This document shows positions 3,846 through 50,019 of a stretch of 64,000 nt of DNA, one piece after another. The notes under the pieces were generated by a model. The model saw nothing but the letters and a program-made list of their open reading frames with translations, was not told the DNA's origin and ran no database searches. Every line of letters begins with the position of its first letter. Within the stretch, counting starts at the first letter, position 1. The stretch is from Candidatus Omnitrophota bacterium (GTDB lineage Bacteria; Omnitrophota; Gorgyraeia; 2-01-FULL-45-10). Where the stretch lies: positions 54,814-118,813 of the forward strand of contig JAUYOL010000036.1 in assembly GCA_030695905.1 (NCBI GenBank), read 5' to 3'. Made by a program: the position numbers and the translations under genes.

Positions 3846-3855
3846 CTCTAATACC

Positions 3856-6974: not shown

Positions 6975-6975
6975 T

Positions 6976-8568: not shown

Positions 8569-9595
8569 CCGAGTAAAACTTTGCGTCCTTAAGACATCTT
8601 ATCAGGTTTTCAGCATATGCATCCGCGCCATCTCCGCTTATTTTAATGCCGATGCCGTGCCTTTCAAGCTCGTCCAACGGCGCGATATTGCCGTATATTA
8701 CAGGCTTGCCTAATACGGCTAATTCGAGTAAAACAAGCGGTATCTCTAAAATTCCTACCATCGGGCGCCTTACAGGCATGATGCCTGCCGCGCAACTATT
8801 AAAAAGCGCGGGCATATCCTCAACAGTATCCAGCAACGTAAAGTTTTCTACGCCATTATTTTTCAGCAATACGGCAAACTCTTTCTTTAGCTTCGCGTCT
8901 TCTTTCGTCCTCACGCGGCATGCCATCACGAATTCGGCATTTCGTATTTTTTTCGTAACCAGTAAAGCTATTTTCAGTAGCTCAGAAAATGAGTAGGAGT
9001 CATTTAATATCTTATATGTGCCCGGATATATTACGCGTGGTAAAGGCGCGTGTTTTAAATCGGAACCGCGCGGCGCGCCAAACCGCTGCGTCTCGACTCC
9101 CGGATAGACCCTGATTACATTTTTCACGCCGAGTGCGGTAAGTTTTTCTTTAGCGTAATCGGAGTGCACCACTACACGGTCGGCAAAGAATAAAGACGAT
9201 ATCGGCACGTTAGCGTTCTTATTAAATAAAGTATGTATCGAAGTTAATATCTGCACCGATTTCTTTCCATTCTTTTTTACGAATCTACTGTAAAAGCCGG
9301 AAAAATACGGCTGCGGAGTGATAAAAAATTGGAACACGTCTATTTTTTTAGCGATTAAGACTGTTATAAATAGCACATAAAGCTTCTGCAGAATCGACAT
9401 GCTGTGCCTGCCCGGCTTCTGGAAAAGCGAAGGAATAAATGCTATGTTTGTTTCCGGAGCAAATTTATTTCCAAGCGATGACACAAAATAAAATAAATGC
9501 TTTTTTATGCGCTGCGCAATACCCATGACAATATTTTTCGCGCCATCATTGTAAGGCGGACTGATAGGGGCCATTGTTATCGTAAATATCTTCAC
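8471..9595 (-). CDS. Glycosyltransferase, GT-B fold (family 1/4-like)
   Basis: 374 aa; C-terminal ...GILEIPLVLLELAVLGKPVIYGN... resembles the GT4 E-x7-E donor-binding region; N-terminal half is Rossmann-like. Confidence 0.5.
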   Translation of the reverse strand: MKIFTITMAPISPPYNDGAKNIVMGIAQRIKKHLFYFVSSLGNKFAPETNIAFIPSLFQKPGRHSMSILQKLYVLFITVLIAKKIDVFQFFITPQPYFSGFYSRFVKKNGKKSVQILTSIHTLFNKNANVPISSLFFADRVVVHSDYAKEKLTALGVKNVIRVYPGVETQRFGAPRGSDLKHAPLPRVIYPGTYKILNDSYSFSELLKIALLVTKKIRNAEFVMACRVRTKEDAKLKKEFAVLLKNNGVENFTLLDTVEDMPALFNSCAAGIMPVRRPMVGILEIPLVLLELAVLGKPVIYGNIAPLDELERHGIGIKISGDGADAYAENLIRCLKDAKFYSDVANKSQDGVKRCFTMDAMAAEYDKIYSEIGG

Positions 9596-11076
9596 TTTTT
9601 CCGCGCCTTTGGACTGATAAATACGTCCTTTAATCTTGATGCGATACCTGATTCGACTATCACCTTTTGAAATATTTCCGTGTAGTAAAGCCGCGCAAGG
9701 ATCTTGCTGATAAAAACCGGCAGCCCTATGCCACTGAATATGTTTTCCATCTCAGCTGAAAATTTAAGTTTTGTTTTCAGGGTATGTTTTTTCGCTTTTT
9801 TATTAAATTCATTATATAATTTTTTTCTTAAGCCGGCTGACATTTCAGGGGTCTCAAACACAGGGTTATTGACCCAGTGCGAAGAATGATTAAGATATGT
9901 TTCTTCTTTCTCTCTGAAATATTTGTTCTGTTTGACCCATTCATAAAGCTCGGTTCCGGGAAACGGTATGGGGTTATAAAATCTTATATCAAATACCGGA
10001 TATTTAACGGCCAATTGCAAAGATTCATAGGCGTCTTTTTCGGTCTCATGAGGCAGGCCCAATATAAAAAACAAAGTGACCATATAACCAAGGCCACATG
10101 CGTCGCTTATGGCCTTTTCCACGTCTGAAAGCTTTTCGCCCTTCTTAATAATGCTCAGCATCTTTTCGCTGCCGCTCTCTACGCCAAAAGCCAGGTAATT
10201 AAAACCCGCTTCCTTCATTGCGATAAGAGTTTGTTTGTCTATTGTATCTGCTCTTATCCCATTTCTGCAGCTTAGTATGAGCCCGGAGAGTTTTCTTTTT
10301 TTGATATCAGCGCATATATCCAATACCCTCTGTTTCTGAAAAGAAAAGTTGTCATCCACTATGTTGAATATCCTCATACCGTCTTTTTTATACCAGTACT
10401 CAATTTCGTCGACGACCGAAGACGGCGACCTTGTCCTTAACTTTCTCCCTATCGTGACCTTAACCGGACAAAATATGCAGCTATAAGGGCAACCTCTGCT
10501 TGTCAAAAGCGGTATGAAGCGTGGGTACTTATCCTTTTCTAAATATTCGTACTTTGGGAAGCCTATGTTATCAAGATCGATCTTGAAATCCCTGTCTCCG
10601 GAATACAGAACCTTGCCGCCTTCCCTGTAAAGCAACCCCTTTATCTCTTCCGGATTTTTCATACCGCTGCATAGTTCCAATATAGTATCTTCGCCTTCAA
10701 GCGCAACGCCATAATCTATTGAAATGCATTCTTCAAGGGTCCGCGCCCTAAAAGTGGATATGTGCGGCCCGCCTGCCACTATCTTTATATTTTTAAAGCT
10801 ATCTTTTATAAAATCGGCAAGCGCATAATGATCCCTATATTTGAAGCTCATCATACTTATGCCGATAAGGTCCGGATTGAACGAGCTTATGGACTCAAGA
10901 AGATCCCTATTGCTATAACCAAGGGACATGTCAAAGACCTTATGCGCTATTTTTCCTTTCTTTAACGATTCGGAAATATAGCCCAGGCCTGCCGGCAGCC
11001 CCACATATTCATAATGCGACTGCTTATAGTTCGGCCGTATCAGCAATACTCTTTTATAAGCATTTAAAGGCTTCAT
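9592..11076 (-). CDS. Cobalamin (B12)-binding radical SAM enzyme (class B)
   Basis: N-terminal Rossmann-type B12-binding domain (VLLIRPNY...DLIGISMM...). Radical-SAM cluster motif LLTSRGCPYSCIFCPV (CxxxCxxC). 494 aa. Confidence 0.8.
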   Translation of the reverse strand: MKPLNAYKRVLLIRPNYKQSHYEYVGLPAGLGYISESLKKGKIAHKVFDMSLGYSNRDLLESISSFNPDLIGISMMSFKYRDHYALADFIKDSFKNIKIVAGGPHISTFRARTLEECISIDYGVALEGEDTILELCSGMKNPEEIKGLLYREGGKVLYSGDRDFKIDLDNIGFPKYEYLEKDKYPRFIPLLTSRGCPYSCIFCPVKVTIGRKLRTRSPSSVVDEIEYWYKKDGMRIFNIVDDNFSFQKQRVLDICADIKKRKLSGLILSCRNGIRADTIDKQTLIAMKEAGFNYLAFGVESGSEKMLSIIKKGEKLSDVEKAISDACGLGYMVTLFFILGLPHETEKDAYESLQLAVKYPVFDIRFYNPIPFPGTELYEWVKQNKYFREKEETYLNHSSHWVNNPVFETPEMSAGLRKKLYNEFNKKAKKHTLKTKLKFSAEMENIFSGIGLPVFISKILARLYYTEIFQKVIVESGIASRLKDVFISPKARKK

Positions 11077-12179
11077 CGCTTCTCCATGAGCTGTGCATAC
11101 TGAGCAAGATAGTCGCCCGCTATCCTGTCCCAGCTGAAATTATACATGACATATTCTCTGGATTTTTTTGCCAGGTCCAGCCTTAAATCCGGCCTGGAAA
11201 GCAATGAACTCACGGTTTCGGCAAAAGCATTGTAATCGCCTTCCTTTATAAGAATCCCGTTTTTATTGTTATGCAGGGCTTCCGCGATACCATCCACTTC
11301 ATACGCTACAACAGGCAGAGCATTCATCCCGGCCTCAAGCACAACCAAACCAAAACCTTCAGCGTCATCCTTTACCTTAATATTAGGCATTACAAAAACA
11401 TCGCTTGCCGTAAATAATGCATTATAAAGACCGCTGTCATGTTCAACGTATCCCAGCCTGTGCGCCTTTCCGAAGAATCCCGACCTTCTAATGGCATTAT
11501 CTATCTCGGGCGCCTGCGGACCATCGCCTGCCACCAAAAAAAGTATATCTTTGTTTTTTTCATTGATCCTCGGCATCCCCTCTTCAATAAACTCTTTTAT
11601 GCCCTTTTTTGGCACGAGCCTGGAAACAGAAAGAATAATCTTTTTATCTGTTAACATAATCCCAAAATGCGCCGCTATTGCCCTACGGGCAATATCTTTG
11701 TCCAAACAGTTATTAATACGGCCCTTTATATCAATGCCATTGGGTATGACCGCAAGCTTATTCTCCGGAATGCCCCGCGCGGCCAGCCTTTCTTTTATAT
11801 AATTGCTTACACAAATTATCCTATCGAGCTTTTTTGCCGGACACAATACTAAAAGATCGTACAAAATACCCGCATACGCCGAATCCCTTCCGTGCGATAC
11901 AGACAGAACGGGCTTATTGAATAATATCTTGAGTAAAAATCCGAGAGGAGAAAGCACCAGGTCGCCTAGCTGAATAACATCCACCTTATTTGTAATTACC
12001 AATAAAACCGATACCATAAAGGCGTATGCCATAAAAAGCGGTAGAAAGAGCTGCGAGTGCCCCCATGCTATCAAATACACCTTATTACCTGCGGCAATAC
12101 TGTCATAAAATTGCCTGCTTTGGGTCTGCATCCCGCCTATGCTGGGTGGAAATTTACGCGTTATATATAAAATGTTCAT
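11073..12179 (-). CDS. Glycosyltransferase family 4 (GT-B)
   Basis: Canonical EGFGLVVLEAGMNALPVVAYEVDGIAE (E-x7-E) motif. 368 aa. Confidence 0.8.
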   Translation of the reverse strand: MNILYITRKFPPSIGGMQTQSRQFYDSIAAGNKVYLIAWGHSQLFLPLFMAYAFMVSVLLVITNKVDVIQLGDLVLSPLGFLLKILFNKPVLSVSHGRDSAYAGILYDLLVLCPAKKLDRIICVSNYIKERLAARGIPENKLAVIPNGIDIKGRINNCLDKDIARRAIAAHFGIMLTDKKIILSVSRLVPKKGIKEFIEEGMPRINEKNKDILFLVAGDGPQAPEIDNAIRRSGFFGKAHRLGYVEHDSGLYNALFTASDVFVMPNIKVKDDAEGFGLVVLEAGMNALPVVAYEVDGIAEALHNNKNGILIKEGDYNAFAETVSSLLSRPDLRLDLAKKSREYVMYNFSWDRIAGDYLAQYAQLMEKR

Positions 12180-13124
12180 TTAAGGCTTAGACTGCTCCTT
12201 TCTCTGCCTATACAGGATCTCTTCCGATAGTTTCCTGTTAGCGGCAATAATATCAGCCAGAAGACCTGTAAATATCAGCTGAGCTCCTATTATGGTCAGG
12301 ATCAGCGCCAGGATAAGAGATTGCACGTGCCCGCCCCTCTTTACTCCGAAAAAGAAGAAATACAGGTATCTGCCACCTAATATGGCTGCACCGCCTAAGA
12401 ATAACGACCCTATCTTAACAAAGAACTTCATCGGCTCATACATAAGATATATGCGCAATATCGTTGCAATGGACCTCAGAATATATGAGGCGGTATTTTT
12501 AATCAATCGCGATTCCCGCAGCTTTGGGTTTGCTTTTATATCTATATGCGCCACAGGGATTTCCTTCCTCCCCGCCTGAATCACCGTTTCCAAAGTATAG
12601 GTGTAAGTAGAAAATACATTTAACCGCAATGCAGCTTCTCTCGTATAAGCCCTGAATCCGCTTGTCACATCGGGGATAGCGGTATTCGAGAACTTCCTGA
12701 CCACCCAGCTTCCGAGCTGCTGCAAGACTTTTTTCAGCAACGAAAAATGCTGTATCGCGAACATGTCCCTGCAGCCTATGGTAATCTCTGCCTTGCCGTT
12801 TAATATAGGCCCTATAAGCCGCGGAATATCCTCGCCCTTGTACTGATTATCGCCATCCGTATTCACTATTATATCTGCGCCAAGAGCTAGGCTCTTTTCC
12901 AAGCCTCTCCTGAATGCCTCGGCCAACCCCCTATGCGAAGGCATGTCTACTATATAATCAACGCCCAGTTTTTTTGCGGTTTCAACGGTAGCATCGCCGC
13001 TCCCGTCATTTATGACTAATATTTTAATATCGTCGATACCTTTTATCCTTCTTGGTATGCTGTTTATAACTACCGGTAAAGTATTCTCTTCGTTATAACA
13101 CGGTATCTGAACTACGAGTTTCAT
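12180..13124 (-). CDS. GT2 polyprenyl-phosphate glycosyltransferase (DPM1/ArnC/CsbB-like) with C-terminal TM helices
   Basis: VVQIPCYNEENTL...ILVINDGSGDATVE...DGDNQY (DxD) typical of dolichyl/undecaprenyl-phosphate sugar synthases. Two C-terminal TM helices (IGSLFLGGAAILGG..., LILALILTIIGAQLIFTGLL). Confidence 0.8.
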   Translation of the reverse strand: MKLVVQIPCYNEENTLPVVINSIPRRIKGIDDIKILVINDGSGDATVETAKKLGVDYIVDMPSHRGLAEAFRRGLEKSLALGADIIVNTDGDNQYKGEDIPRLIGPILNGKAEITIGCRDMFAIQHFSLLKKVLQQLGSWVVRKFSNTAIPDVTSGFRAYTREAALRLNVFSTYTYTLETVIQAGRKEIPVAHIDIKANPKLRESRLIKNTASYILRSIATILRIYLMYEPMKFFVKIGSLFLGGAAILGGRYLYFFFFGVKRGGHVQSLILALILTIIGAQLIFTGLLADIIAANRKLSEEILYRQRKEQSKP

Positions 13125-13147
13125 CTTTCACCTCTCAATTTAGTAAA

Positions 13148-13942
13148 TCATTTTTCTAAAATAAACAAATTACTTCCAGCGCAAATATATGGAAAAAACT
13201 TTTCTAAAATATTACCCCATTTAACTGCAAGCTTGCTTTCGCCGTCATACGTATTTTTGTCTCTAAAGAAAGATGAAAATTCCACCAAAGAAAATGTATG
13301 ATCTATCGGCTTATGAAGGACTACCCTATACCCTGCTTCATTAAATTTTGCCATTAATTTTTTCGGGGCAAAATATTTCTGATAATAATACACCTTCTTT
13401 TCTTTTGAAAAAATACTCCTTAAAAATGGAGATCTCTTCAGCCATACAATCGGGCTCTTAATGATAGTAAAAATATTTCTGTGAGGAACCGTTACAAGCG
13501 CTGTCCCCCCTTTTTTAAGCACCCTATACGCTTCCCTTAAGGCAGCATTCGGACCTTCTATGAAATGCTCAATCACCCCGAATGAGATATATGTATCTAA
13601 ACTTTCGTCCTGAAACGGCAATGTCCTGACGTCGGCTGTGGCTAAACGAATATCGGGGTTGTAACTTTTCGCCTGCCTTATAGTAGGTTCGTTGTAATCG
13701 ATACCTATTATATTGTAACCTTTGGAACGAAGATATCCCACCCACTGCCCCAGGCCGCATCCTGCTTCCAGCACTAATCCCTTTTTCGGAAGATAATTGA
13801 GATATACGTCGATTATCTTTTTGACTCTAGGATAATCGAATATTTCATTGATGGATTTAAGGTCCACCTTGCTCCAATTAAGTTCCCACGACTTCTTGGT
13901 ATCTGATTCTATTTTCTTACAGAGCTCTCTTTGAATATCCAT
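13148..13942 (-). CDS. Class I SAM-dependent methyltransferase
   Basis: VLEAGCGLGQWVGYL...IGIDYNEP (motif I GxGxG plus acidic motif II). Confidence 0.7.
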   Translation of the reverse strand: MDIQRELCKKIESDTKKSWELNWSKVDLKSINEIFDYPRVKKIIDVYLNYLPKKGLVLEAGCGLGQWVGYLRSKGYNIIGIDYNEPTIRQAKSYNPDIRLATADVRTLPFQDESLDTYISFGVIEHFIEGPNAALREAYRVLKKGGTALVTVPHRNIFTIIKSPIVWLKRSPFLRSIFSKEKKVYYYQKYFAPKKLMAKFNEAGYRVVLHKPIDHTFSLVEFSSFFRDKNTYDGESKLAVKWGNILEKFFPYICAGSNLFILEK

Positions 13943-14721
13943 TTTTTATCTTTCAAATTCTGTCTGAATAACCGCCTGTTAGAGGCGTATACTGAAAAAG
14001 TGTTTTCTTTTGCCAGAGGCAGCATCTGAACCTTTCCGCCAGCCCCGGTAACAATTGCAACCCCAGCGGCGACGTCCCATAGCATTATATTATTTTCACG
14101 GTAAACATCCGCTCTGCCTGCCGCGACATAGGCTAGCGACAAAGCAGCGGACCCGATCAAACGGACTTTTTTATAGCTTTGAATTTGCTTGGTAAATTTT
14201 AATATACCGCCGGATGAAAAATCGGCGCTCACTGGAAAACCCGTACAAAGTACGGCGTTTGCTTCTTTGGAAACAGCGCTCACTCTTATCCGTCTTTGGT
14301 TCAAGAACGCAATTTTACCGGCTATGCCGGAAAAAAGTTCATTTTTATTGAAGTCGTAAATTACTCCCAACAAAGGCTCCTCGCCCCTCCACAGACCTAC
14401 AGAAACGCAGCTTATAGGAATCCCGCGTAAAAAATTCATAGTTCCATCAAGCGGGTCAATAATCCAAAGAAAACGCTTTTCAGAATTTCCCGGCAGAAAC
14501 CCTCTTTCTTCTGTAAGAATATCAAATTCAGATTTGGCTCTTAACATATTTACGATGATCTTTTCTGAATGTAAATCAGCGGAGATCTTTACATCTTTCC
14601 CGAGATCGGCCAGGATTTTATTGTCTTTTATTTTCGTCCGAGACAAAAACGCGCCGGCGCCGCGCGCCGCCTTTTCAGCGATAAATAACCATTTCTCTAG
14701 CTCATGCATTTCCCTAGTCAT
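13909..14721 (-). CDS. Inositol-monophosphatase family phosphatase (IMPase/SuhB/CysQ fold), putative sugar-phosphate phosphatase
   Basis: WIIDPLDGTMNF (DPxDGT) and upstream E-E metal-binding residues. C-terminal WDVAAG motif of the IMPase family. Confidence 0.75.
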   Translation of the reverse strand: MTREMHELEKWLFIAEKAARGAGAFLSRTKIKDNKILADLGKDVKISADLHSEKIIVNMLRAKSEFDILTEERGFLPGNSEKRFLWIIDPLDGTMNFLRGIPISCVSVGLWRGEEPLLGVIYDFNKNELFSGIAGKIAFLNQRRIRVSAVSKEANAVLCTGFPVSADFSSGGILKFTKQIQSYKKVRLIGSAALSLAYVAAGRADVYRENNIMLWDVAAGVAIVTGAGGKVQMLPLAKENTFSVYASNRRLFRQNLKDKKWIFKESSVRK

Positions 14722-15644
14722 TAATATTTCCTTAAAGCTTCGATAAGGTTTTTGACCGCTTCCATTTCCATCCGCTTTCTACACTCAACCGTGTAAGAAC
14801 CAACGTGGGGGGTAAGCATAACTTGCGGATATTTTATCAACGGCCCAGCATATGGCTCCTCTTCAAATACATCAAGCCATGCCCCTGCAATGCGTTTTTC
14901 CTCCAGCGCCTTTACGAGAGCGTCTTCATTTACAGCTCCGCCGCGTGCCGCATTAAGGATAAATGCGCCTTTTTTTATCTTCCGCAATTCATTCTTTCCA
15001 ATAATACAATTGTTCCCACTGGAATGTATACTGATAATATCGGCTTCTGACAATGCCTTCTCAAGCGATAGGGTTGTTACATTAGCATCGCTATTCTTTA
15101 TAAGCGGGTCTACTACCAATACCCTTACTCTAAAAGGTATAAGCAGCTGGCTTAATCTTCTGCCTATGCGCCCAAAACCTACGATTACCACTGTCTTCCC
15201 TTCAAGCAGGAAGCCTATCCGCTTGGCCCATCTGCCTTTATGAAGTTCATTGTCCATAAAAGGCACGGCCCTTATAAGACTCAGTATGGCTGCCAGTGTA
15301 AGTTCGGCAACAGAATTTACTGGAGCGTCCGGAGTTGAACATACTGTAATTCCTAATTCCTCGGCTGCCGCAAGATCCACATTAGACATCCCGGAACCAC
15401 ATCTGGATATAACCTTTAATCTGGATTTAGACATTATTTCTTTGTCTAGAATTTCTAATCCTGCAATCAAACCTGTTATGCCCTTTGACAATAATCCTAA
15501 CAGTTCAGGTTTTGTTAGCCGGCGCTTATAAGGATTATCCATTACTTCACACCCTGCATTTTTAAGCATATCTAAGGGTTCCGTGTCAGTAGCTGCAAAA
15601 GATGAGGTGCTTATAAGTATCTTTTCTCCGAAAAATTGCTTCAT
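14721..15644 (-). CDS. D-isomer-specific 2-hydroxyacid dehydrogenase (phosphoglycerate-dehydrogenase-like)
   Basis: GKTVVIVGFGRIGRRL NAD-binding motif. ...RGGAVNEDAL...H catalytic region typical of the family. Confidence 0.75.
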   Translation of the reverse strand: MKQFFGEKILISTSSFAATDTEPLDMLKNAGCEVMDNPYKRRLTKPELLGLLSKGITGLIAGLEILDKEIMSKSRLKVISRCGSGMSNVDLAAAEELGITVCSTPDAPVNSVAELTLAAILSLIRAVPFMDNELHKGRWAKRIGFLLEGKTVVIVGFGRIGRRLSQLLIPFRVRVLVVDPLIKNSDANVTTLSLEKALSEADIISIHSSGNNCIIGKNELRKIKKGAFILNAARGGAVNEDALVKALEEKRIAGAWLDVFEEEPYAGPLIKYPQVMLTPHVGSYTVECRKRMEMEAVKNLIEALRKY

Positions 15645-15651
15645 ACAAACA

Positions 15652-16263
15652 TTATCCTTTTCGTTTTTTAAACCACATCCAGGTATAGATAAGATGGTCC
15701 ATTATCATGTGGATATCCTCAACGGGCCCATATTCGCCTTTCGGCGTATTCACATGTACGCAGATATCGCTTATTTCCTTTAATTTACCTCCGTCAAAGC
15801 CGACAAGGCCTATAACTCTGCCTCCTCGTTTTTTGACCCATCTTGCGGCATTTACAACATTAGGGGAATTGCCGCTTGCCGAAATGGCTACAAGCTTATC
15901 GCCCCGCTTGTAATAGAGATTGAGCTGTCTGATAAAAATATTGTCATAACCGGAATCGTTTGCAATGGCAGTTATGGATGAAACATTGTCGGTAAGAGAT
16001 ATTGCGCGAAACGGCAGCTTCTCATCCTTGCGCGTCCCTAATCCAAAATCGTTTGCCATGTGCGAAGCCGTTGATGCAGAGCCGCCGTTGCCTATGAAAA
16101 ACACGGTATTGCGATTTTTATGCGCCTTGTCAAATTCCCTGACGATACCTTCTATCACACCCATGTCAAGCCGGTCCATCAGGCCGCACAGATACCTGAA
16201 ATAACCCTTGCTGAACTGGTGTATATCGGCCGAGTTATTAAAAAGAGTTTCTATATTTTCCAT
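15652..16263 (-). CDS. gmhA: SIS-domain sedoheptulose-7-phosphate isomerase (GmhA-like)
   Basis: 203 aa; VFFIGNGGSASTASHMANDF and AISASGNSPNVV match the GmhA phosphoheptose isomerase signature. Confidence 0.7.
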   Translation of the reverse strand: MENIETLFNNSADIHQFSKGYFRYLCGLMDRLDMGVIEGIVREFDKAHKNRNTVFFIGNGGSASTASHMANDFGLGTRKDEKLPFRAISLTDNVSSITAIANDSGYDNIFIRQLNLYYKRGDKLVAISASGNSPNVVNAARWVKKRGGRVIGLVGFDGGKLKEISDICVHVNTPKGEYGPVEDIHMIMDHLIYTWMWFKKRKG

Positions 16264-16278
16264 AATCCTCTTCGCCTT

Positions 16279-17007
16279 TCATTTTTGCCTTATAAAGATA
16301 AGATTTGAATACTTATCGTCAAGACGGTGCTGTTGAGATTTTTCAAACCCGATGGCTGTCAGGAAATTTGTTATTTTACTATACCGCTCCGTATCGGATT
16401 CAATCAATATACTTTTTACTCTGGGGAGTAATTTCACGGCCCCCTGCAATATCTCATATTCATTACCATCAACATCAAGTTTTATATGATCTATCTGCGG
16501 CAAGTTGAATTCCTCCGCAAAATCATCCAGCGAGTAAGAAAGAACGTGCTGGATCCAGTTATCGCCTATTACTGTATTTACAATAGTATTGCAAGATCCG
16601 CCTTCGGACGTCTGATTATATGAAAAAGCGTTTATGCGCTTATCGCTGTACAAGGCGATATTAAACGGAATAATACTGGTAAACCTGTTTGCTAGTATGT
16701 TTTTCTCCAGCATATAAAAATTAAAAATGGACGGCTCAAAGGCATAAACAAGCCTGCAGTATCTGGATGCTACCAAAGAGTACGCGCCTACGTTGGCCCC
16801 GATATCAACAAAAACGTCATTTTTCCCGAACGTTTCTATCCATTTTATGGTCCCCGGTTCCTTGGCGCATGAATTAAGGCGCAGATTATCACACATCAGG
16901 ATATCGAATTTCGCGTAATCTAATTTATGAATGATTTTAATCTTTTTGATTGTGTCCGCTACAATAGATTTTGACCTGTTTTTTAAAGAATTCCACGATA
17001 GCTTCAT
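16279..17007 (-). CDS. FkbM-family SAM-dependent methyltransferase
   Basis: VFVDIGANVGAYSL...AFEPSIFNFYMLEKNI is the FkbM-domain signature. Confidence 0.7.
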   Translation of the reverse strand: MKLSWNSLKNRSKSIVADTIKKIKIIHKLDYAKFDILMCDNLRLNSCAKEPGTIKWIETFGKNDVFVDIGANVGAYSLVASRYCRLVYAFEPSIFNFYMLEKNILANRFTSIIPFNIALYSDKRINAFSYNQTSEGGSCNTIVNTVIGDNWIQHVLSYSLDDFAEEFNLPQIDHIKLDVDGNEYEILQGAVKLLPRVKSILIESDTERYSKITNFLTAIGFEKSQQHRLDDKYSNLIFIRQK

Positions 17008-17031
17008 TCAGATATCCTCCTAAGCAAGTTA

Positions 17032-18561
17032 CTATGCCTTCTCTTTGGTAAAATCCCAAACTGCCTCTTTTCTGGTGATAAAGTAAAAGATTTTCCTCAA
17101 AAGACTATAAAGCCTGCGGGAAAACACGCTATCATTTTCTGCCAGACCAATCAATGGATAAAATATTTTGGGTAATTTTAAATACATCTGAAAAGTTTTG
17201 AAAATACCGTTCAGCTCTTTTCTGGACACGTCTTTTAAGTTAAGGCAGGAGTCTGTCCTGTAACCGTCCTCGAACTCTCTTTCTTTTGATATATCAAAAA
17301 TATTTTCTTGAACACACAGGCCTCTAACCTTTGTGCCGCGATAGGGATGTAAAAAGGTAAGCGTGGTAGTCGTAGGGTTGGCCTTCCGGTTTAATTCAAT
17401 GGTTTCAAATATATTTTTCCTGGTCTCATGCGGTATACCTATGATATTGAAAGATGAGCTGCGCACTTTATATTTATGCGCCAATTTAAAAACATTGATA
17501 ATATGCTCATCGGAACAACGACGCTCAAAAATCTCTTCCCTTATTTTTGGATTACCGGACTCGAGCCCGACGCAAATATTGCGGCAGCCGGCGTCAACAA
17601 GTTTGGCAAACTGTTTCTCTCGGACCAGCTCTGCGTGTAAACTTACATTGAAAGGGATCTTTACGTTCTTTTTATAAAGACGACAGAACTCGTCCAAAAC
17701 ATCCTCTTTGTGCAGAGGAAAAATATCATCTACAAAGAACGCAAAATTAAGATTATATTTTTCCTTGCATTCCGCTATCTCTTTAACCGCCAGATCCGGG
17801 CGTTTTATACGATATAGCGCACCCTTGTTTTTATAGATATTGGACAGGGCAAAATTGGCGCAATAAGTACAGCGGAAAAGACAACCGCGCGTGAGAGAAA
17901 ATATACCCATGCGGTACATCTTACCCCCCAGGGGACGTATTAAATGGCGCTCGTCAAACAAGCTCCAGTCAGGTTGCAGCAAAGAATCCAGATCGATGAG
18001 CGACCGCACATCATTACGATAGACTTTCCCATTGTGTTTTATCCATATATTGCCGACGTTTAGGATGTCTTTGCCTTCAGCGAATTTTGAGCACAATTCC
18101 GGAACGGCTTCTTCGCCTTCTCCGACGCAGATAGCATCCACGCAATCTTCAGCGATAACTTCCTCGGGAGAAAAAGTGACCGTAGGTCCGCCGAACAAAA
18201 CAAAGATATTCTTATAGTCCCTCTTTATCGCCCTCGCAAGCTCTAAACCAAAACGGTAATTAGGGTCAACGACGCTGATACCGACGACATCCGGAACGCA
18301 CTTTTCTATTTTTTTAAAAAGTTCGCCGATAACATCCGCCTCCTGCTCAATAATATTGTATTCAGAGAAGTCGGGATTACGCACCTGCAGAGAATATGCC
18401 CTTAATTGATCATCGCTGACGCCGCTACCGCATTTCACAAAAGTCGTGTCAAAAACATCCACCTGATGCCCGGCGGCCTTAAGATAAGAGATTAGATATC
18501 CTACCCCCAGCGGCATGCGGGTCGTCATCGTTTTATTGGGATATATAAGTAAAATCTTCAT
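17032..18561 (-). CDS. Cobalamin (B12)-binding radical SAM enzyme (class B)
   Basis: MKILLIYPN...PDVVGISVV B12-binding Rossmann region. FSLTRGCLFRCTYCAN radical-SAM motif. 509 aa. Confidence 0.8.
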   Translation of the reverse strand: MKILLIYPNKTMTTRMPLGVGYLISYLKAAGHQVDVFDTTFVKCGSGVSDDQLRAYSLQVRNPDFSEYNIIEQEADVIGELFKKIEKCVPDVVGISVVDPNYRFGLELARAIKRDYKNIFVLFGGPTVTFSPEEVIAEDCVDAICVGEGEEAVPELCSKFAEGKDILNVGNIWIKHNGKVYRNDVRSLIDLDSLLQPDWSLFDERHLIRPLGGKMYRMGIFSLTRGCLFRCTYCANFALSNIYKNKGALYRIKRPDLAVKEIAECKEKYNLNFAFFVDDIFPLHKEDVLDEFCRLYKKNVKIPFNVSLHAELVREKQFAKLVDAGCRNICVGLESGNPKIREEIFERRCSDEHIINVFKLAHKYKVRSSSFNIIGIPHETRKNIFETIELNRKANPTTTTLTFLHPYRGTKVRGLCVQENIFDISKEREFEDGYRTDSCLNLKDVSRKELNGIFKTFQMYLKLPKIFYPLIGLAENDSVFSRRLYSLLRKIFYFITRKEAVWDFTKEKA

Positions 18562-18566
18562 AATCC

Positions 18567-19592
18567 TTACTTTTTTATTGCCGCGATCCTCACATGTGAA
18601 CTTAATTGAAAATGCTGCAAATACTCCTGAAGCGAGCGCAGAGACTCTTTGCCTCTATTATCAAAAATATATTTCCAAAAACCGTCGATAGATATACCAC
18701 GATCTTTCTCGTACTCCCTCTTGACAGTCTCAACGTCAAACCTGCCCGGAGTGCTCACTTCGATTATTTCAAAACCGGCGTTTTTTATCCCGGAGATCAT
18801 GGCCTCCAGCGACAATATGTTTAACCTGTCGGGGACTATAACGTTAGGAGAGATATCCCTCAAGACTTGATATTCAAACCCGCTTGCAGTAACGGACGTA
18901 ATGATAAACAGGCCGTTCTTTGCGCAGGAACGATATGCTAAATCAAACAGATCCTTAGGCGAAAAAACCCTTTCTATTATTTCAAAGGCAGCGAAAATGT
19001 CCACCTTACCGGCGAATTCTCCGGTGTTTTTTAAAATTTTTGCGTTCTTTAACAACAGATCTTCTTGTTCATAGCACTGCGGCATCAATGAAATGGACGA
19101 AGAAAAGACACCGGATTCATTAAGTTCTTTTAGAAAATCCGGATACCTGGTGCCGTAATCTAAAAATATCCCTTTCTTGGAAAGATACTCTCCGACCAAA
19201 TCGATAAGCCACTGGGTACGATAAGAAAAGACATTTTGTGCGCGCGTTTCCGAAGTTTTTTTGAAAAAAACTTCCCTAAGGAATTTTCCGGAACTGGAAT
19301 CTTTATAGAAATTCCTCAGCGCTTCTTCGCTGGGACGCGGAGAAGCATACCAGGAACCGCAGATACCGCATACATGATAGGTAAAACCATTTTTAACAAA
19401 ATGCCTCTCCTCTTTTTTAGACAGGCAACCCGGGCATTTAATATCCGTCAACAGCGATTTATCAGAAAAATATTGTTTTATGTCCTTAACAACCAGCTTC
19501 TTGTACTCATTGTAGATATGCTCTGGCCGAATCTCCGATTCTTTTAAATCATCTAAAAATACTACATTTCTCATATTTTCCCCCTTCCGCAA
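18567..19592 (-). CDS. SAM-dependent methyltransferase with N-terminal zinc-ribbon (sugar C-methyltransferase-like, TylCIII-type architecture)
   Basis: CPGCLSKKEERHF...HVCGICGSWYASPRP Cys4 ribbon followed by a Rossmann methyltransferase fold (FLDYGTRYPDFL...). Confidence 0.45.
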   Translation of the reverse strand: MRKGENMRNVVFLDDLKESEIRPEHIYNEYKKLVVKDIKQYFSDKSLLTDIKCPGCLSKKEERHFVKNGFTYHVCGICGSWYASPRPSEEALRNFYKDSSSGKFLREVFFKKTSETRAQNVFSYRTQWLIDLVGEYLSKKGIFLDYGTRYPDFLKELNESGVFSSSISLMPQCYEQEDLLLKNAKILKNTGEFAGKVDIFAAFEIIERVFSPKDLFDLAYRSCAKNGLFIITSVTASGFEYQVLRDISPNVIVPDRLNILSLEAMISGIKNAGFEIIEVSTPGRFDVETVKREYEKDRGISIDGFWKYIFDNRGKESLRSLQEYLQHFQLSSHVRIAAIKK

Positions 19593-20641
19593 AGATCTGA
19601 AACACCGCCGGCATTTATGTTCTTATCATCGGCATATATCCTCTGGACCAGGTCCATTGTCTTTATCGCGTCATCCACCCCGCCATTAGTGATCGGCTTA
19701 TCCTCTGCCACGCACTCTACAAACTCGCTGATCTCAGCTATCCAGGAGTCGTCGTCATCATAATAAACCATATTTTCCTGAGGATTAGGCATGGGGTAAT
19801 TATTTTTGTCAAAAATACACCTGGCTATCTTTAATGTCTCCCTGCCATATGTCCGCGTTGAGGAAAGGATCCCGTCTATCTCCAAATACCCTTTTTCCAT
19901 ATATATCTCCAGCAGAAATTTATGCCTCCACTGTGTTGCCGAAGAATGAATCATCGCGGTCTGCCCGGTCCCGGCGTTGCGCAGCAACGCGAAGACATTA
20001 TCCTCGACTTCCACCTTCCAGTACGAATTACCGACAAAGCTTTTAACCTCATCAAATTCTCCGCAAAAATAACGGAAGAGGTCGAGCATGTGGATCCCCT
20101 GGTCTATCAATATACCCCCTCCGGACAGCGCTTTCTTATTGCGCCAATCTAAATCATAACCGGCTCCTCCGGCTTTGCCATATATGCCACGCATCCACAT
20201 TATATTCCCTAATCTGGCGCTCTTTACAATTGACCTGGCCTCTTTAACACCTTCGTGATAACGGTGGTTAAAACCGAATTTTACCTTTACCGAAGGATTG
20301 TTGACGGATGAGCGCTGAATCGCCTTTACATCTTCCAGGGTACAGCCTGGCGGTTTCTCGCTGAACACGTGAATCCCGCGCGATATAGCCTCAACGGCAA
20401 TCTCCGGTATGTGCCGGTTATAAGAACATATGAACACGATATCCGGTTTTTTATCCAAAACTTTTCTAAAATCATCGAAAAACGGCACGCCCGGCTGCTG
20501 CCACACACCGGGGTTGATATCGCACACGCCCGTCAATTCAAGGGCGGGATGGCGATCGACGCATTCATGGCGTATCTTTCCCACCTTGCCGTAGCCGATA
20601 ATCCCGACCTTATACTTTTTTTTCAATCTGTTCGTCGTCAT
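19571..20641 (-). CDS. Gfo/Idh/MocA-family NAD(P)-dependent oxidoreductase (sugar dehydrogenase)
   Basis: KVGIIGYGKVGKIRHE...ELTGVCD N-terminal dinucleotide-binding motif. EKP active-site motif (FSEKPPG). Confidence 0.8.
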   Translation of the reverse strand: MTTNRLKKKYKVGIIGYGKVGKIRHECVDRHPALELTGVCDINPGVWQQPGVPFFDDFRKVLDKKPDIVFICSYNRHIPEIAVEAISRGIHVFSEKPPGCTLEDVKAIQRSSVNNPSVKVKFGFNHRYHEGVKEARSIVKSARLGNIMWMRGIYGKAGGAGYDLDWRNKKALSGGGILIDQGIHMLDLFRYFCGEFDEVKSFVGNSYWKVEVEDNVFALLRNAGTGQTAMIHSSATQWRHKFLLEIYMEKGYLEIDGILSSTRTYGRETLKIARCIFDKNNYPMPNPQENMVYYDDDDSWIAEISEFVECVAEDKPITNGGVDDAIKTMDLVQRIYADDKNINAGGVSDLCGRGKI

Positions 20642-22134
20642 TTTGTAAAATATTTATCCTGATAAATCTTCTTAAGCATATTGAACATGCGGTTGCCCTC
20701 ATCGTCAAACTTTTCAGCTCTCTTTATCTGCTGCCAATATTCCTTCGGCATGCGGGCATATAAAGCAAACGTCCTTTGCAGTCCCCTTACCTCTTCTTTG
20801 GATAATTGAGGCATATCCAATGACACGTCTACGTTGATAGAGCCGGGGGTAAAACCCTCAGATATAAAGCCCTTTTCAACACAAAGTTTATACAAGGGTG
20901 TGCCGTGAAAAGGGGCGAAAGTAGCGGCATTTACAGTATCAAAAACAAGCTGACGGTTCAATCCAATAGTATCAAAAATCAGCTCCCGGGTTTCACCGGG
21001 GAATCCTATTATATTATTAACCGTTAAGGGTATTCCGACGTCGGCTATTATCTTCGATGCCTTTATCATCTTATCATTATCGAATCTTTTCTTTAGCACC
21101 TTCTTCCGAAACTCATCATTGCCGTGCTCGAGCCCCATGGACATGCGGTGGCACCCCACCTCTTTAAGTTTTTTTATCTTGTATTTAGTAATCACCTCGA
21201 CTCGTGACTGCATCCAAAAAGGCAGTTTTATATCCGCATAAAAATCGATAAATTCTTCAAACTCATCATCGGTAAGAGTTAAAAAAGTATCGGAAGCAAA
21301 ATAAACATATTCAGCATTCCATTTCTTTACCAAATACTGCACTTCTTCCTTGATCTTCTTCATGGATTTTTTCCTGAAAAATACTCCGGCATCACTGTCA
21401 CGATACAGCTGTGAAGTCGACGGAGAATTACAAAAAGTGCAGGAATACGGACATCCCCTGTTAGTTTCTATCGGTATTGTCAAATATACCTTGCCTGCCA
21501 TGGGGCGGAAAAATCTCTGCTTCTCAAATAAGTCGTAATCGGGAATTGGCAGCCCGTTCAGATCTATGGGCTTTTTTAATTTATTGACTATTATCCTGCC
21601 GTCTTTTTTGATGACCAGGTTCTCTACGCCAAAACAATCTTTGCCTTCCGACAAACGCTTGCACACCTCAATCAGGGCGTCTTCTCCTTCACCGCGGCAT
21701 ACCATGCTAATATTTTTGTTTGACAGGATAATTTCCGGCGCAAAAGTAGCGAATACCCCGCCGGCAAGAACAGGGATATCAAATCTTTCAATGGCTTTTA
21801 TCATGCGAAGAGCGATCGGATATGTGCATTCCAGGATAGAAATGGTAATCAGGTCCGGCTTAAAATCCTGCACTTTTTTGACAAGATCGTCTTCAAAGAG
21901 CCCTTCATTAAGCCTTACGTCTCTTTCTCCATAATCAAAAGGACGGACCTGAAGATTTTCCTGCTTGGCATCATCCGATCCCCTCTCTTTTTTGTCGGCA
22001 TAAAAAGTAGTATCAAACAAGTCCGCTTCAAAACCATTTTGCTTGAGTAAAGCTGTAAATATGCCGATAGAGATCGGCGGCGGATTTAAAAGTTTACCGT
22101 TGGGATATAAAAGCAAAGCTTTAAAAGGTTTCAT
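20638..22134 (-). CDS. Cobalamin (B12)-binding radical SAM enzyme (class B)
   Basis: ALLLYPN...PDLITISIL B12-binding domain. IETNRGCPYSCTFCNS radical-SAM motif. 498 aa. Confidence 0.8.
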   Translation of the reverse strand: MKPFKALLLYPNGKLLNPPPISIGIFTALLKQNGFEADLFDTTFYADKKERGSDDAKQENLQVRPFDYGERDVRLNEGLFEDDLVKKVQDFKPDLITISILECTYPIALRMIKAIERFDIPVLAGGVFATFAPEIILSNKNISMVCRGEGEDALIEVCKRLSEGKDCFGVENLVIKKDGRIIVNKLKKPIDLNGLPIPDYDLFEKQRFFRPMAGKVYLTIPIETNRGCPYSCTFCNSPSTSQLYRDSDAGVFFRKKSMKKIKEEVQYLVKKWNAEYVYFASDTFLTLTDDEFEEFIDFYADIKLPFWMQSRVEVITKYKIKKLKEVGCHRMSMGLEHGNDEFRKKVLKKRFDNDKMIKASKIIADVGIPLTVNNIIGFPGETRELIFDTIGLNRQLVFDTVNAATFAPFHGTPLYKLCVEKGFISEGFTPGSINVDVSLDMPQLSKEEVRGLQRTFALYARMPKEYWQQIKRAEKFDDEGNRMFNMLKKIYQDKYFTK

Positions 22135-40268: not shown

Positions 40269-40270
40269 CT

Positions 40271-48636: not shown

Positions 48637-48638
48637 TC

Positions 48639-50012: not shown

Positions 50013-50019
50013 AATAGTC

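What the first reader, a model, noticed from the sequence alone, without database searches (positions are those of the whole stretch)
9592..22134. Unusual density of cobalamin-dependent radical SAM enzymes interleaved with glycosyltransferases and methyltransferases
Sequence: four complete class-B (B12-binding) radical SAM genes lie at 9592–11076, 17032–18561, 20638–22134 and 54710–56044, plus a fifth partial at the window end. Each has an N-terminal B12 Rossmann domain followed by RGCP(Y/N)(S/T)C.FC. They are mutually divergent paralogs rather than recent duplicates, and sit among GT4/GT2 genes, three SAM methyltransferases (class I, FkbM, Zn-ribbon C-MT-like) and a Gfo/Idh/MocA dehydrogenase.

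Established knowledge: class-B rSAMs typically methylate unactivated carbons or P/N centres (GenK, Fom3, TsrM), or catalyse ring contractions/rearrangements; one or two per secondary-metabolite cluster is common.

Inference: five in a cell-surface glycan locus suggests extensive C-methylation or radical tailoring of sugars or of a polyprenyl/lipid carrier, i.e. an undescribed highly modified glycan.
Basis: partly seen in the sequence, partly recalled or inferred. Interest (0 to 1): 0.75.

Follow-up and report, generated by a model that had tools for sequence, protein, structure and literature searches.

The report
Radical enzymes tailoring a surface glycan
An uncultured Omnitrophota bacterium carries at least six vitamin-B12-type radical SAM enzymes, plus a glycyl radical enzyme, in one giant cell-surface sugar gene cluster, and two of them look like optional add-ons to a conserved pathway for a Kdo-like activated sugar acid, although what they do chemically is still unknown.

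Summary
Four complete genes with a B12-binding domain and a radical SAM domain lie at the stated coordinates. The fifth, cut by the window edge, is complete on the source contig, and a sixth lies about 8 kb further upstream. They share only 22-33% identity. None reaches the cut-off of any curated family.

All 57 window genes are on one strand, in a glycan locus of at least 84 kb from a Candidatus Omnitrophota MAG.

Relatives carry this core with or without rSAM3, with or without the methyltransferase-rSAM2 pair, and with or without an adjacent glycyl radical enzyme and its activase. These therefore look like optional tailoring modules for a CMP-activated ulosonic acid. rSAM1 orthologues always sit beside GT4 glycosyltransferases.

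C-methylation is the likeliest chemistry but is unproven, because sequence cannot separate methylating from non-methylating class B enzymes. Loci with several B12 radical SAM genes recur in uncultured lineages, so the density is real but not unique. I found no published description of such loci. The glycyl radical enzyme in a biosynthetic setting is the most novel element.

The parts
9592..11076 (-). B12 radical SAM gene 1 (rSAM1, 494 aa), translationally coupled between two GT4 genes
   Evidence: PF02310 and PF04055. 100% identical to an NCBI 'Candidatus Omnitrophota bacterium' MAG protein. Its family has 2301 hits at E<1e-20. Orthologues of 48-62% identity lie beside GT4 or capsule-synthesis genes in L105, L106 and L107.
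17032..18561 (-). B12 radical SAM gene 2 (rSAM2, 509 aa)
   Evidence: PF02310 and PF04055. 32% identical to rSAM3. A 61% orthologue sits in the same position, Gfo-MT23-rSAM2-SIS2, in L090.
20638..22134 (-). B12 radical SAM gene 3 (rSAM3, 498 aa). It overlaps the activase stop and the Gfo start.
   Evidence: PF02310 and PF04055. Its family has 3233 hits at E<1e-20, and the top 120 are at least 54% identical, across several phyla. The AlphaFold model has pLDDT 92 and matches TsrM, AprD4, MgmA, CysS, OxsB and TokK over its whole length. It lies next to Gfo in L004, L090 and L091.
54710..56044 (-). B12 radical SAM gene 4 (rSAM4, 444 aa), between a GT-C (PMT_2) gene and a GDP-mannose-4,6-dehydratase-like gene
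   Evidence: PF02310 at 74 bits and PF04055 at 101 bits. Rare sequence type: only one 50%-cluster representative is at least 50% identical, and about six reach E<1e-100.
63198..64000 (-). C-terminal 266 aa of B12 radical SAM gene 5 (rSAM5, 489 aa on the source contig)
   Evidence: Starts at GCPYDCIFCC at the window edge. The complete gene in L108 has B12-binding and Radical_SAM domains. A split transketolase precedes it, and a GHMP kinase and an NTP transferase follow it.
22121..22951 (-). Glycyl-radical-enzyme activase (radical SAM, 276 aa)
   Evidence: TIGR02494 at 298 bits against a cut-off of 174. Pfam Radical_SAM and Fer4_12.
22948..24960 (-). Short glycyl radical enzyme (670 aa ORF, 661 aa as called) of the eliminase/isomerase type
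   Evidence: PFL-like and Gly_radical domains. The Cys loop DGCSE aligns with GCVE (Cys433/Glu435) of glycerol dehydratase, and RVWG aligns with RVAG. Far below every equivalog cut-off. About 50 orthologue clusters at 56% identity or more, all metagenomic.
24951..25724 (-). KduD-like short-chain dehydrogenase (cassette core)
   Evidence: TIGR01832 at 303 bits against a cut-off of 339. 61-68% orthologues lie next to the KdsB-like gene in L088-L090.
25721..26485 (-). KdsB-like CMP-ulosonic acid synthetase (cassette core)
   Evidence: NF009905 at 270 bits against 255, NF003952 at 259 against 193, TIGR00466 at 156.1 against 155.2. 59-69% orthologues in L004 and L088-L090.
26476..27237 (-). HpcH/HpaI-family class II pyruvate aldolase (cassette core)
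   Evidence: PF03328 at 118 bits. HpaI, GarL and 2-keto-3-deoxy-rhamnonate aldolase models match below their cut-offs. Orthologues in L004, L006 and L088-L090.
19571..20641 (-). Gfo/Idh/MocA oxidoreductase (cassette core)
   Evidence: Pfam. Nearest solved structures are inositol dehydrogenases, but weakly. 42-71% orthologues occur in every cassette.
18567..19592 (-). Class I SAM methyltransferase with an N-terminal CPGC...CGIC (MT23). It travels with rSAM3/Gfo and rSAM2.
   Evidence: PF13489 at 31 bits only. No TylC3-type domain at E<=1. 54-58% orthologues in L090 and L091.
16279..17007 (-). FkbM-family methyltransferase (accessory, seen only in this cassette)
   Evidence: PF05050, and TIGR01444 at 88 bits against a cut-off of 38.
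13909..16263 (-). GmhA-like SIS isomerase (15652-16263), PGDH-like D-2-hydroxyacid dehydrogenase (14721-15644) and IMPase-like phosphatase (13909-14721). This is a conserved core block.
   Evidence: Pfam. NCBIfam matches below cut-offs. PDB 1wwk PGDH at E 2e-52 and IMPase 5zhh at E 2e-39. Same order, with 47-55% orthologues, in L004, L088 and L089.
8471..13942 (-). Block MT11 - GT2 - GT4 - rSAM1 - GT4
   Evidence: Pfam. The same block order is found in L105.
53668..54663 (-). GDP-mannose-4,6-dehydratase-like gene directly downstream of rSAM4
   Evidence: PF16363 at 403 bits.
61478..63201 (-). GHMP kinase and NTP transferase directly downstream of rSAM5
   Evidence: Pfam.

Best explanation
The B12 radical SAM genes are sugar-tailoring enzymes of a very large LPS or surface-glycan locus of a Candidatus Omnitrophota bacterium. 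The locus has Wzx/Wzy-type and GT-C-type assembly genes.

rSAM3 and rSAM2 are optional decoration modules, rSAM2 together with a class I methyltransferase. They are grafted onto a conserved seven-gene cassette: an HpcH aldolase, a KdsB-like cytidylyltransferase, a KduD-like reductase, Gfo/Idh/MocA, a GmhA-like isomerase, a PGDH-like dehydrogenase and an IMPase-like phosphatase. This cassette builds a CMP-activated 2-ulosonic (Kdo-like) acid by enzymes that are not the canonical KdsD/A/C set.

The neighbouring glycyl radical enzyme and its activase form a third optional module. The enzyme probably removes a hydroxyl by radical 1,2-elimination, with the KduD-like reductase handling the resulting ketone.

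The most likely chemistry for the B12 enzymes is methyl transfer to unactivated sugar carbons, from SAM through methylcobalamin to a substrate radical made by 5'-deoxyadenosyl. Precedents are GenK, GenD1, Fms7 and MoeK5. rSAM1 works at or after the glycosyl-transfer stage. rSAM4 acts on a GDP-6-deoxyhexose-derived sugar. rSAM5 acts on a kinase/NTP-transferase-activated sugar.

Shown: domain architecture, cluster motifs, fold, operon coupling, the conserved core with variable modules, and the KdsB-like assignment.

Inferred: substrates, methylation, the role of the glycyl radical enzyme, and the identity of the sugar.
For: - Architecture.
- Single-strand, overlapping operon.
- The locus carries a phosphoglycosyl transferase, Wzy_C, a flippase, a GT9 heptosyltransferase and many GTs.
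- The core cassette is conserved at 40-71% identity in L004, L006/7, L088, L089 and L090. L088 and L089 have no B12 radical SAM in the cassette. L004 has rSAM3 only. L090 and the window have rSAM3 plus MT23 plus rSAM2. The glycyl radical enzyme is present in L088-L090 and absent in L004 and L006.
- The KdsB-like gene passes NCBIfam subfamily cut-offs, and the SDR is close to KduD.
- The glycyl radical enzyme has the CxE Cys loop and the RVxG glycine. The 2026 GRE review ties the CxE motif to C-O-cleaving eliminases and isomerases.
- rSAM1 orthologues are flanked by GT4 genes in three phyla.
- The review states that every class B group with a characterised member includes C-methyltransferases, and it lists the sugar methylases GenK, GenD1, Fms7 and MoeK5.
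Against: - No family assignment: the best NCBIfam scores are a quarter of the cut-offs.
- Methylating and non-methylating class B enzymes cannot be distinguished by sequence or structure.
- AprD4, a cobalamin-free sugar diol dehydratase, is among the closest solved relatives of all four.
- The rSAM3 orthologue in L002/L003 (Omnitrophota, 67% identity) has none of the core cassette genes within 10 kb. Its link to the cassette is therefore frequent, not obligate.
- The roles of the three core oxidoreductases and of the aldolase are not resolved, so the sugar's structure is unknown.
- Cobalamin binding and cobalamin supply in this organism are untested.
Confidence: 0.55

Rival explanations
1. The enzymes do tailor sugars, but by non-methylating radical chemistry. 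Candidates are diol dehydration (as in AprD4), ring contraction or carbocycle formation (as in OxsB, HpnJ or calditol synthase), epimerisation or oxidation. The class I methyltransferases in the locus would then do all the methylation, on oxygen or nitrogen.
For: - AprD4 is a top sequence and structure match for all four.
- HpnJ, a sugar ring-contraction enzyme, is the best NCBIfam model for all five.
- Three class I methyltransferases are interleaved with the radical SAM genes.
- The core contains inositol-dehydrogenase-like and IMPase-like enzymes, which would fit cyclitol-type chemistry.
- The review says such enzymes are indistinguishable from methylases.
Against: - The AprD4 similarity is confined to the radical SAM core. 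The NCBIfam AprD4 model aligns only from about residue 190 onward.
- The N-terminal domains score well above the Pfam B12-binding cut-off.
- HpnJ scores are 105-166 bits against a cut-off of 578.
- Most characterised class B enzymes are methylases.
Confidence: 0.27
2. Some of them, especially rSAM1, modify a lipid rather than a sugar. The target could be the polyprenyl carrier, lipid A or membrane lipids, by analogy with hopanoid, ladderane or tetraether lipid enzymes.
For: - HpnJ, HpnR and ladderane-lipid models are among the matches.
- rSAM1 lies near an LPG_synthase_TM protein and a GT-C enzyme that uses lipid-linked donors.
- Omnitrophota carry membrane-spanning-lipid genes elsewhere.
Against: - No hopanoid, Tes, Mss or Grs gene is present in the roughly 84 kb examined.
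- All lipid-family scores are far below their cut-offs.
- The conserved neighbours of rSAM1 are GT4 glycosyltransferases, and those of rSAM2 and rSAM3 are soluble sugar-acid enzymes.
Confidence: 0.08
3. They modify peptides or proteins, by RiPP-type or post-translational C-methylation as in PoyC or MgmA/QCMT. On this view they sit in the glycan locus only by chance or because of shared regulation.
For: MgmA/QCMT is the best solved match for rSAM1 and rSAM4. RiPP methylase models ApyD and rSAM_ocin_1 appear in the match lists.
Against: - No precursor peptide, leader peptidase or RiPP transporter context was seen.
- Scores are far below the cut-offs (49-106 bits against 360 for QCMT).
- The glycan context is conserved across phyla.
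- The genes are translationally coupled to glycan genes.
Confidence: 0.03

Closest known systems
Aminoglycoside and moenomycin class B radical SAM sugar C-methyltransferases (GenK, GenD1/GntE, Fms7, MoeK5)
   Same: An N-terminal cobalamin-type Rossmann domain with a CxxxCxxC radical SAM core. They act within sugar-rich biosynthetic clusters on unactivated sugar carbons. The review lists them as class B methylases.
   Different: Those enzymes work in antibiotic pathways of actinomycetes, one or two per cluster. Here there are at least six, in a cell-envelope glycan locus of an uncultured anaerobe. Membership was not tested.
MgmA/QCMT (PDB 9ccb) and AprD4 (PDB 6fd2), the nearest solved structures
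   Same: Sequence E-values of 1e-14 to 1e-21. Whole-length structural match of the rSAM3 model, with TM-score about 0.63-0.64.
   Different: MgmA methylates a protein glutamine. AprD4 binds no cobalamin and dehydrates a sugar diol. NCBIfam scores for both families are 5- to 8-fold below their cut-offs. The window genes are not members.
Canonical CMP-Kdo pathway (KdsD, KdsA, KdsC, KdsB)
   Same: The logic is the same: a sugar-phosphate isomerase, a C3 condensation, a phosphatase and a cytidylyltransferase. The cytidylyltransferase passes KdsB subfamily cut-offs.
   Different: The isomerase is GmhA-like (SIS_2 without CBS domains). The condensing enzyme is an HpcH class II aldolase rather than KdsA. 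The phosphatase is IMPase-like rather than HAD. Three extra oxidoreductases are present, plus optional radical enzymes.
Glycyl radical C-O eliminases and isomerases (glycerol dehydratase, HypD, HpyG, YbiW/PflD)
   Same: The CxE Cys loop, the RVxG glycine loop and a dedicated adjacent activase. Best PDB matches are HpyG 8id1, glycerol dehydratase 1r8w and HypD 6vxc. YbiW and PflD show that the family can act on sugar phosphates.
   Different: About 115 residues shorter at the N-terminus. 26-31% identity range to the longer relatives in the homologue search. Scores 276 bits against 678 for the subfamily model. All characterised members are catabolic or ribonucleotide reductases. This one sits in a nucleotide-sugar cassette, and the 2026 GRE review contains no occurrence of 'polysaccharide', 'biosynthetic gene cluster' or 'natural product'.

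Membership tests
Class B (cobalamin-dependent) radical SAM enzymes | CxxxCxxC cluster motif within a PF04055 radical SAM core | tested here: met
   All five genes.
Class B (cobalamin-dependent) radical SAM enzymes | N-terminal cobalamin-binding Rossmann domain (PF02310) preceding the core | tested here: met
   49-74 bits against a cut-off of 32 for the four complete genes. rSAM5 meets it on the source contig.
Class B (cobalamin-dependent) radical SAM enzymes | Whole-protein fold like solved class B enzymes | tested here: met
   The rSAM3 model (pLDDT 92) matches TsrM, MgmA, CysS, OxsB and TokK with TM-scores of 0.59-0.67. The other four were not modelled.
Class B (cobalamin-dependent) radical SAM enzymes | Actual cobalamin binding and methyl transfer | not testable with these tools
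   AprD4 has a related N-terminal domain but binds no cobalamin. This needs reconstitution of the protein.
HpnJ (TIGR03471), BchE (TIGR02026), MgmA/QCMT (TIGR04014), PhpK (TIGR04479), ladderane lipid rSAM (TIGR04072), AprD4 (NF033070) | Score at or above the curated equivalog cut-off | tested here: not met
   The best score in any case is HpnJ at 105-166 bits against 577.6. All other models are also 2- to 10-fold below their cut-offs.
KdsB (CMP-Kdo synthetase), for the gene at 25721-26485 | Score at or above the NCBIfam cut-offs | tested here: met
   NF009905 at 270.3 against 255, NF003952 at 258.9 against 193, TIGR00466 at 156.1 against 155.2, which is marginal. The substrate could be a Kdo analogue.
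Glycyl radical 1,2-eliminases and isomerases | C-terminal RVxG glycine loop, CxE Cys loop and an adjacent activase | tested here: met
   RVWG at 646 and GCSE at 303, both aligned to glycerol dehydratase Cys433/Glu435. Activase TIGR02494 at 298 bits against 174.
Glycyl radical 1,2-eliminases and isomerases | Assignment to a characterised member (HypD, CutC, sulfopropanediol dehydratase, PFL2/glycerol dehydratase subfamily) | tested here: not met
   TIGR01774 at 276 bits against 678. HypD at 267 against 1100. CutC at 210 against 1050.
TylC3-type NDP-sugar C-methyltransferases, for the gene at 18567-19592 | Pfam zinc-binding N-terminal domain and C-methyltransferase C-terminal domain | tested here: not met
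   Only PF13489 at 31 bits. No other methyltransferase domain at E<=1. A CPGC...CGIC pair is present.

The most novel reading that the evidence does not exclude
Anaerobic bacteria of several phyla make a family of CMP-activated, Kdo-like ulosonic acids by a non-canonical pathway. Its products are diversified by three interchangeable radical modules: a glycyl radical enzyme acting as a biosynthetic deoxygenase, and two B12 radical SAM enzymes that install C-methyl branches. This would be the first glycyl radical enzyme in glycan or nucleotide-sugar biosynthesis. It would also be the first B12 radical SAM C-alkylation of a cell-surface sugar, giving branched deoxy-ulosonic acids not yet seen in any glycan.
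Probability: 0.3. Interest if true: 0.8.

Novelty: new variant of a known kind. Interest (0 to 1): 0.6.

Why it matters
Class B radical SAM enzymes form one of the largest unexplored enzyme groups. A 2026 review counts more than 100 sequence groups and says the largest remain unstudied.

This locus and its relatives give several of those groups a concrete and testable setting. The setting is a conserved CMP-ulosonic-acid cassette, and the presence or absence of the radical modules should map onto specific changes in one sugar.

If the reading is right, it would extend B12 radical SAM alkylation and glycyl radical chemistry from antibiotics and catabolism into cell-envelope glycan diversification in uncultured anaerobes. 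It would also predict new branched or deoxy sugars on their surfaces. That is relevant to phage and host recognition in Omnitrophota, whose polysaccharide cassettes are reported to be hypervariable.

Tried and rejected
- NCBIfam classification of all five radical SAM proteins gave no family at cut-off.
It returned only distant relatives of 24-46% identity. These were useful for density statistics but not for orthologue context.
- The metagenome-contig scan with the single protein gave only 14 loci, of which one (L091) was informative.
- A TylC3-type C-methyltransferase identity for the 18567-19592 gene is not supported.
- The hopanoid, ladderane, bacteriochlorophyll and RiPP readings were rejected on score and context.
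- Literature searches for B12 radical SAM enzymes in O-antigen, capsule, nonulosonic-acid or HpcH/cytidylyltransferase pathways found nothing relevant.
- I sketched two routes to the sugar. One is aldol condensation of pyruvate or hydroxypyruvate with an aldose. The other runs from aldose to aldonate to 2-keto-aldonate, via the Gfo-like and PGDH-like enzymes. I could not discriminate between them, and I commit to neither.
- I could not check the rest of the genome for cobalamin synthesis or uptake genes.

Full report
**Observation**

All ORFs of real length lie on the minus strand. Pfam finds a B12-binding domain (PF02310) followed by a Radical_SAM domain (PF04055) in the ORFs at 9592-11076, 17032-18561, 20638-22134 and 54710-56044.

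The last 800 bases of the window encode the C-terminal 266 residues of a fifth such gene. It begins exactly at its GCPYDCIFCC cluster motif. The source contig shows this gene as a complete 489-aa protein with both domains. It also shows a sixth B12 radical SAM gene about 8 kb further upstream, which is 33% identical to rSAM2.

The paralogues share 22-33% identity, with rSAM2 and rSAM3 the closest pair. Five such genes among 57 is far beyond chance under any plausible genomic frequency.

**Source and locus**

The GRE and rSAM1 proteins are 100% identical to proteins of an NCBI 'Candidatus Omnitrophota bacterium' MAG. The window also lies on a 171.5-kb Logan metagenome contig.

The 57 window genes form one co-directional array. 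37 of 56 junctions overlap and only two gaps exceed 50 bp. The flanks extend it in both directions:
- Upstream lie a phosphoglycosyl transferase, a PglF-like dehydratase, Wzy_C and a split transketolase.
- Downstream lie an acetyltransferase, a UDP-GlcNAc 2-epimerase, GT4 genes, a GT9 heptosyltransferase, a second Bac_transf and a second Wzy_C.

The locus is therefore at least 84 kb of LPS or surface-glycan genes. Inside the window there are also:
- a pseudaminic-acid-type set with WbuX and HisH/HisF-like amidotransferases;
- five PMT_2 GT-C enzymes, plus YfhO and GT87, paired with small GT2 genes;
- an ArnA/ArnD-like fusion.

**Classification of the radical SAM proteins**

None reaches any NCBIfam cut-off. 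HpnJ is the best model for all five, at 105-166 bits against 577.6. BchE, ApyD, the ladderane model, PhpK and QCMT follow at similar fractions of their cut-offs.

The nearest solved structures by sequence are MgmA/QCMT (9ccb) and AprD4 (6fd2), with TokK, CysS, OxsB and TsrM further away. 9ccb is identified as QCMT/MgmA.

An AlphaFold model of rSAM3 built on 19 orthologues has pLDDT 92.3. It matches all of these structures over its full length, with TM-scores of 0.59-0.67, and is not clearly closer to any one.

A 2026 review counts more than 100 sequence groups of B12 radical SAM enzymes, with the largest unexplored. It states that non-methylating members show no features that distinguish them from alkylating ones. 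It also notes that AprD4 has a related Rossmann domain but binds no cobalamin. Class B architecture is therefore established, and the chemistry is not.

**Family sizes**

rSAM3 belongs to a large, well-conserved family. It has 3233 hits at E<1e-20, and the top 120 are at least 54% identical. Named sources include Omnitrophota, Candidatus Wunengus, Deltaproteobacteria, Thermodesulfobacteriota, Ignavibacteria, Rhodospirillaceae and Parcubacteria.

rSAM1 is similar, with 2301 hits from Omnitrophota, Patescibacteria, Scalindua, Planctomycetota and Nitrospiraceae.

rSAM4 is rare. Only one 50%-identity cluster representative is at least 50% identical, and about six reach E<1e-100, out of 54,912 superfamily representatives at E<=1e-3.

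**The conserved cassette**

The genes around rSAM2 and rSAM3 are not a loose mixture. In transcription order the window reads:

HpcH aldolase - KdsB-like cytidylyltransferase - KduD-like SDR - GRE - GRE activase - rSAM3 - Gfo/Idh/MocA - MT23 - rSAM2 - FkbM - GmhA-like SIS_2 - PGDH-like 2-hydroxyacid dehydrogenase - IMPase-like phosphatase - MT11 - GT2 - GT4 - rSAM1 - GT4.

Contexts of orthologues, where an arrow marks transcription order:

| Locus | Gene order |
|---|---|
| L090 | HpcH → KdsB-like → SDR → GRE → activase → MT24 → unknown → rSAM3 (69%) → Gfo (71%) → MT23 (58%) → rSAM2 (61%) → SIS_2 → 2-Hacid_dh |
| L089 | HpcH → KdsB-like → SDR → GRE → short activase → methyltransferase → Gfo → SIS_2 → 2-Hacid_dh → IMPase; no B12 enzyme in the cassette |
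| L088 | HpcH → KdsB-like → SDR → Gfo → SIS_2 → 2-Hacid_dh → IMPase, then GRE → activase a few genes on; no B12 enzyme |
| L004 (Deltaproteobacteria MAG) | KdsB-like (64%) → MT24 → rSAM/SPASM → SDR → unknown → rSAM3 (60%) → Gfo → SIS_2 → 2-Hacid_dh → IMPase → HpcH; no GRE |
| L006/L007 (Rhodospirillaceae MAGs) | rSAM3 (56%) → unknown → HpcH → KdsB-like → Gfo |
| L091 | SDR → rSAM3 (69%) → Gfo (71%) → MT23 (54%) |

One orthologue, L002/L003 at 67% identity, has none of these core genes within 10 kb.

The pattern is a seven-gene core with three modules that come and go:
- GRE with its activase;
- rSAM3;
- MT23 with rSAM2.

This is how tailoring enzymes behave.

**What the core makes**

- The cytidylyltransferase passes KdsB subfamily cut-offs.
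- The SDR scores 303 bits against 339 for KduD, which acts on 2-keto-3-deoxy-gluconate.
- The aldolase belongs with the HpaI, GarL and keto-deoxy-rhamnonate aldolases.
- The isomerase is GmhA-like. The dehydrogenase is closest to Pyrococcus PGDH. The phosphatase is closest to inositol monophosphatases.

Together these point to a CMP-activated 2-ulosonic acid made by enzymes that are not KdsD, KdsA or KdsC. This is an inference from family membership. The carbon number and the substituents of the sugar cannot be deduced.

**The glycyl radical enzyme**

It is intact:
- GCSE aligns with the catalytic Cys433/Glu435 loop of glycerol dehydratase.
- RVWG aligns with the glycyl loop.
- It is about 115 residues shorter at the N-terminus.

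Its best solved relatives are HpyG, glycerol dehydratase and HypD. It forms a discrete group of roughly 50 clusters at 56% identity or more, all from metagenomes.

The 2026 GRE review links the CxE motif to C-O eliminases and isomerases. These include the sugar-phosphate enzymes YbiW and PflD. The review text has no occurrence of 'polysaccharide', 'biosynthetic gene cluster' or 'natural product'. A radical deoxygenation step paired with the adjacent reductase would parallel AprD4/AprD3. That is my inference.

**The other B12 enzymes**

rSAM1 orthologues lie between GT4 genes in three places:
- a Patescibacteria-labelled MAG (L105), where the whole block MT-GT2-GT4-MT-rSAM1-GT4-RtcB-kinase-like-LPG_synthase_TM-PMT-GT2 is syntenic with the window;
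- a Scalindua MAG (L106);
- a Nitrospiraceae MAG (L107), next to Capsule_synth and a second B12 enzyme.

rSAM4 sits between a GT-C gene and a GDP-mannose-dehydratase-like gene. rSAM5 sits between a split transketolase and a GHMP kinase/NTP transferase pair. These positions suggest sugar substrates, but I have no comparative support for rSAM4 or rSAM5.

**How unusual is the density?**

I took 43 loci of at least 15 kb, each anchored on a distant B12 radical SAM gene in other genomes:

| B12 radical SAM genes per locus | Number of loci |
|---|---|
| 1 | 24 |
| 2 | 8 |
| 3 or more | 11 |

One locus has eight. About half of the 43 also hold homologues of the window's glycan genes. Clustering of several B12 radical SAM genes with glycan genes is therefore recurrent in uncultured Bacteria and Archaea. 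It also occurs in at least one cultured flavobacterium, L046. I found no paper that describes it.

**Verdict**

Sugar tailoring is well supported for rSAM2 and rSAM3 and plausible for the rest. C-methylation is the leading hypothesis but is unproven. These are new subfamilies of a known enzyme class in a new setting, and the co-recruited glycyl radical enzyme is the most surprising element.

Noticed in passing
window 22121-24960: A short glycyl radical enzyme and its activase are embedded in, and translationally coupled to, a nucleotide-sugar cassette. All characterised GREs are catabolic or ribonucleotide reductases. Orthologues sit in the same cassette in L088-L090.
   Followed up: yes
window 5411-8568; L105 10588-13644: A full-length but diverged RtcB is followed by a thymidylate-kinase-like P-loop protein and an LPG_synthase_TM protein inside the glycan operon. 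The RtcB keeps the metal-binding Cys and His residues and the GMP-accepting His in an STCHGTGR motif. The same order occurs in a Patescibacteria-labelled MAG. A kinase plus a GMP-dependent ligase could in principle form a phosphodiester in a glycan or lipid instead of sealing RNA. That idea is speculative and untested.
   Followed up: partly
L108 1-10004 (source contig upstream of window position 64000): A sixth B12 radical SAM gene (484 aa, 33% identical to rSAM2). Also a PglC-like Bac_transf, a PglF-like dehydratase, Wzy_C, a Peptidase_C1 gene and a split transketolase (277 + 318 aa) immediately before rSAM5.
   Followed up: partly
window 57805-59392: The carbamoyltransferase gene lacks about 190 N-terminal residues and is followed by a 426-bp gap. 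The source contig calls it as 79-aa and 365-aa pieces. This looks like a frameshift, a pseudogene or an assembly error.
   Followed up: no
window 3856-5445, 42343-51423, 56055-57818: The window holds five PMT_2 GT-C glycosyltransferases plus a YfhO and a GT87 protein. Several are paired with small DPM1/ArnC-like GT2 genes. That is an unusually large set of enzymes using lipid-linked sugar donors on the outer face of the membrane.
   Followed up: no
window 31831-41275: A pseudaminic-acid-type cassette (PseB/PseC-like, GNAT fusion, NeuB, cytidylyltransferase) with WbuX and HisH/HisF-like amidotransferases. This suggests an acetamidino-substituted nonulosonic acid.
   Followed up: no
P0381, P0394, P0401, P0404: Predicted proteins of 1800-2300 aa contain three to five tandem matches to the B12 radical SAM architecture. 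They are either fusions or unresolved gene calls.
   Followed up: no
L074 (whole locus, 21 kb); L049; L067: One unclassified MAG contig has eight to nine B12 radical SAM ORFs in 21 kb. Two Bathyarchaeia contigs have four each.
   Followed up: no
L046 3228-20671 (Tenacibaculum xiamenense WJ-1, cultured type strain): Heptose genes (HldE-like, GmhA, GT9) and a GT87 gene are interleaved with one B12 radical SAM gene, one SPASM radical SAM gene and several further radical SAM genes. This strain is a possible cultivable model for radical SAM enzymes in glycan loci.
   Followed up: partly
L105 versus window 2925-13942: An 11-gene block is syntenic between the Omnitrophota MAG and a MAG labelled 'Patescibacteria group', with 62% identity for rSAM1. 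This is either lateral transfer of a glycan block or a binning or labelling problem.
   Followed up: no
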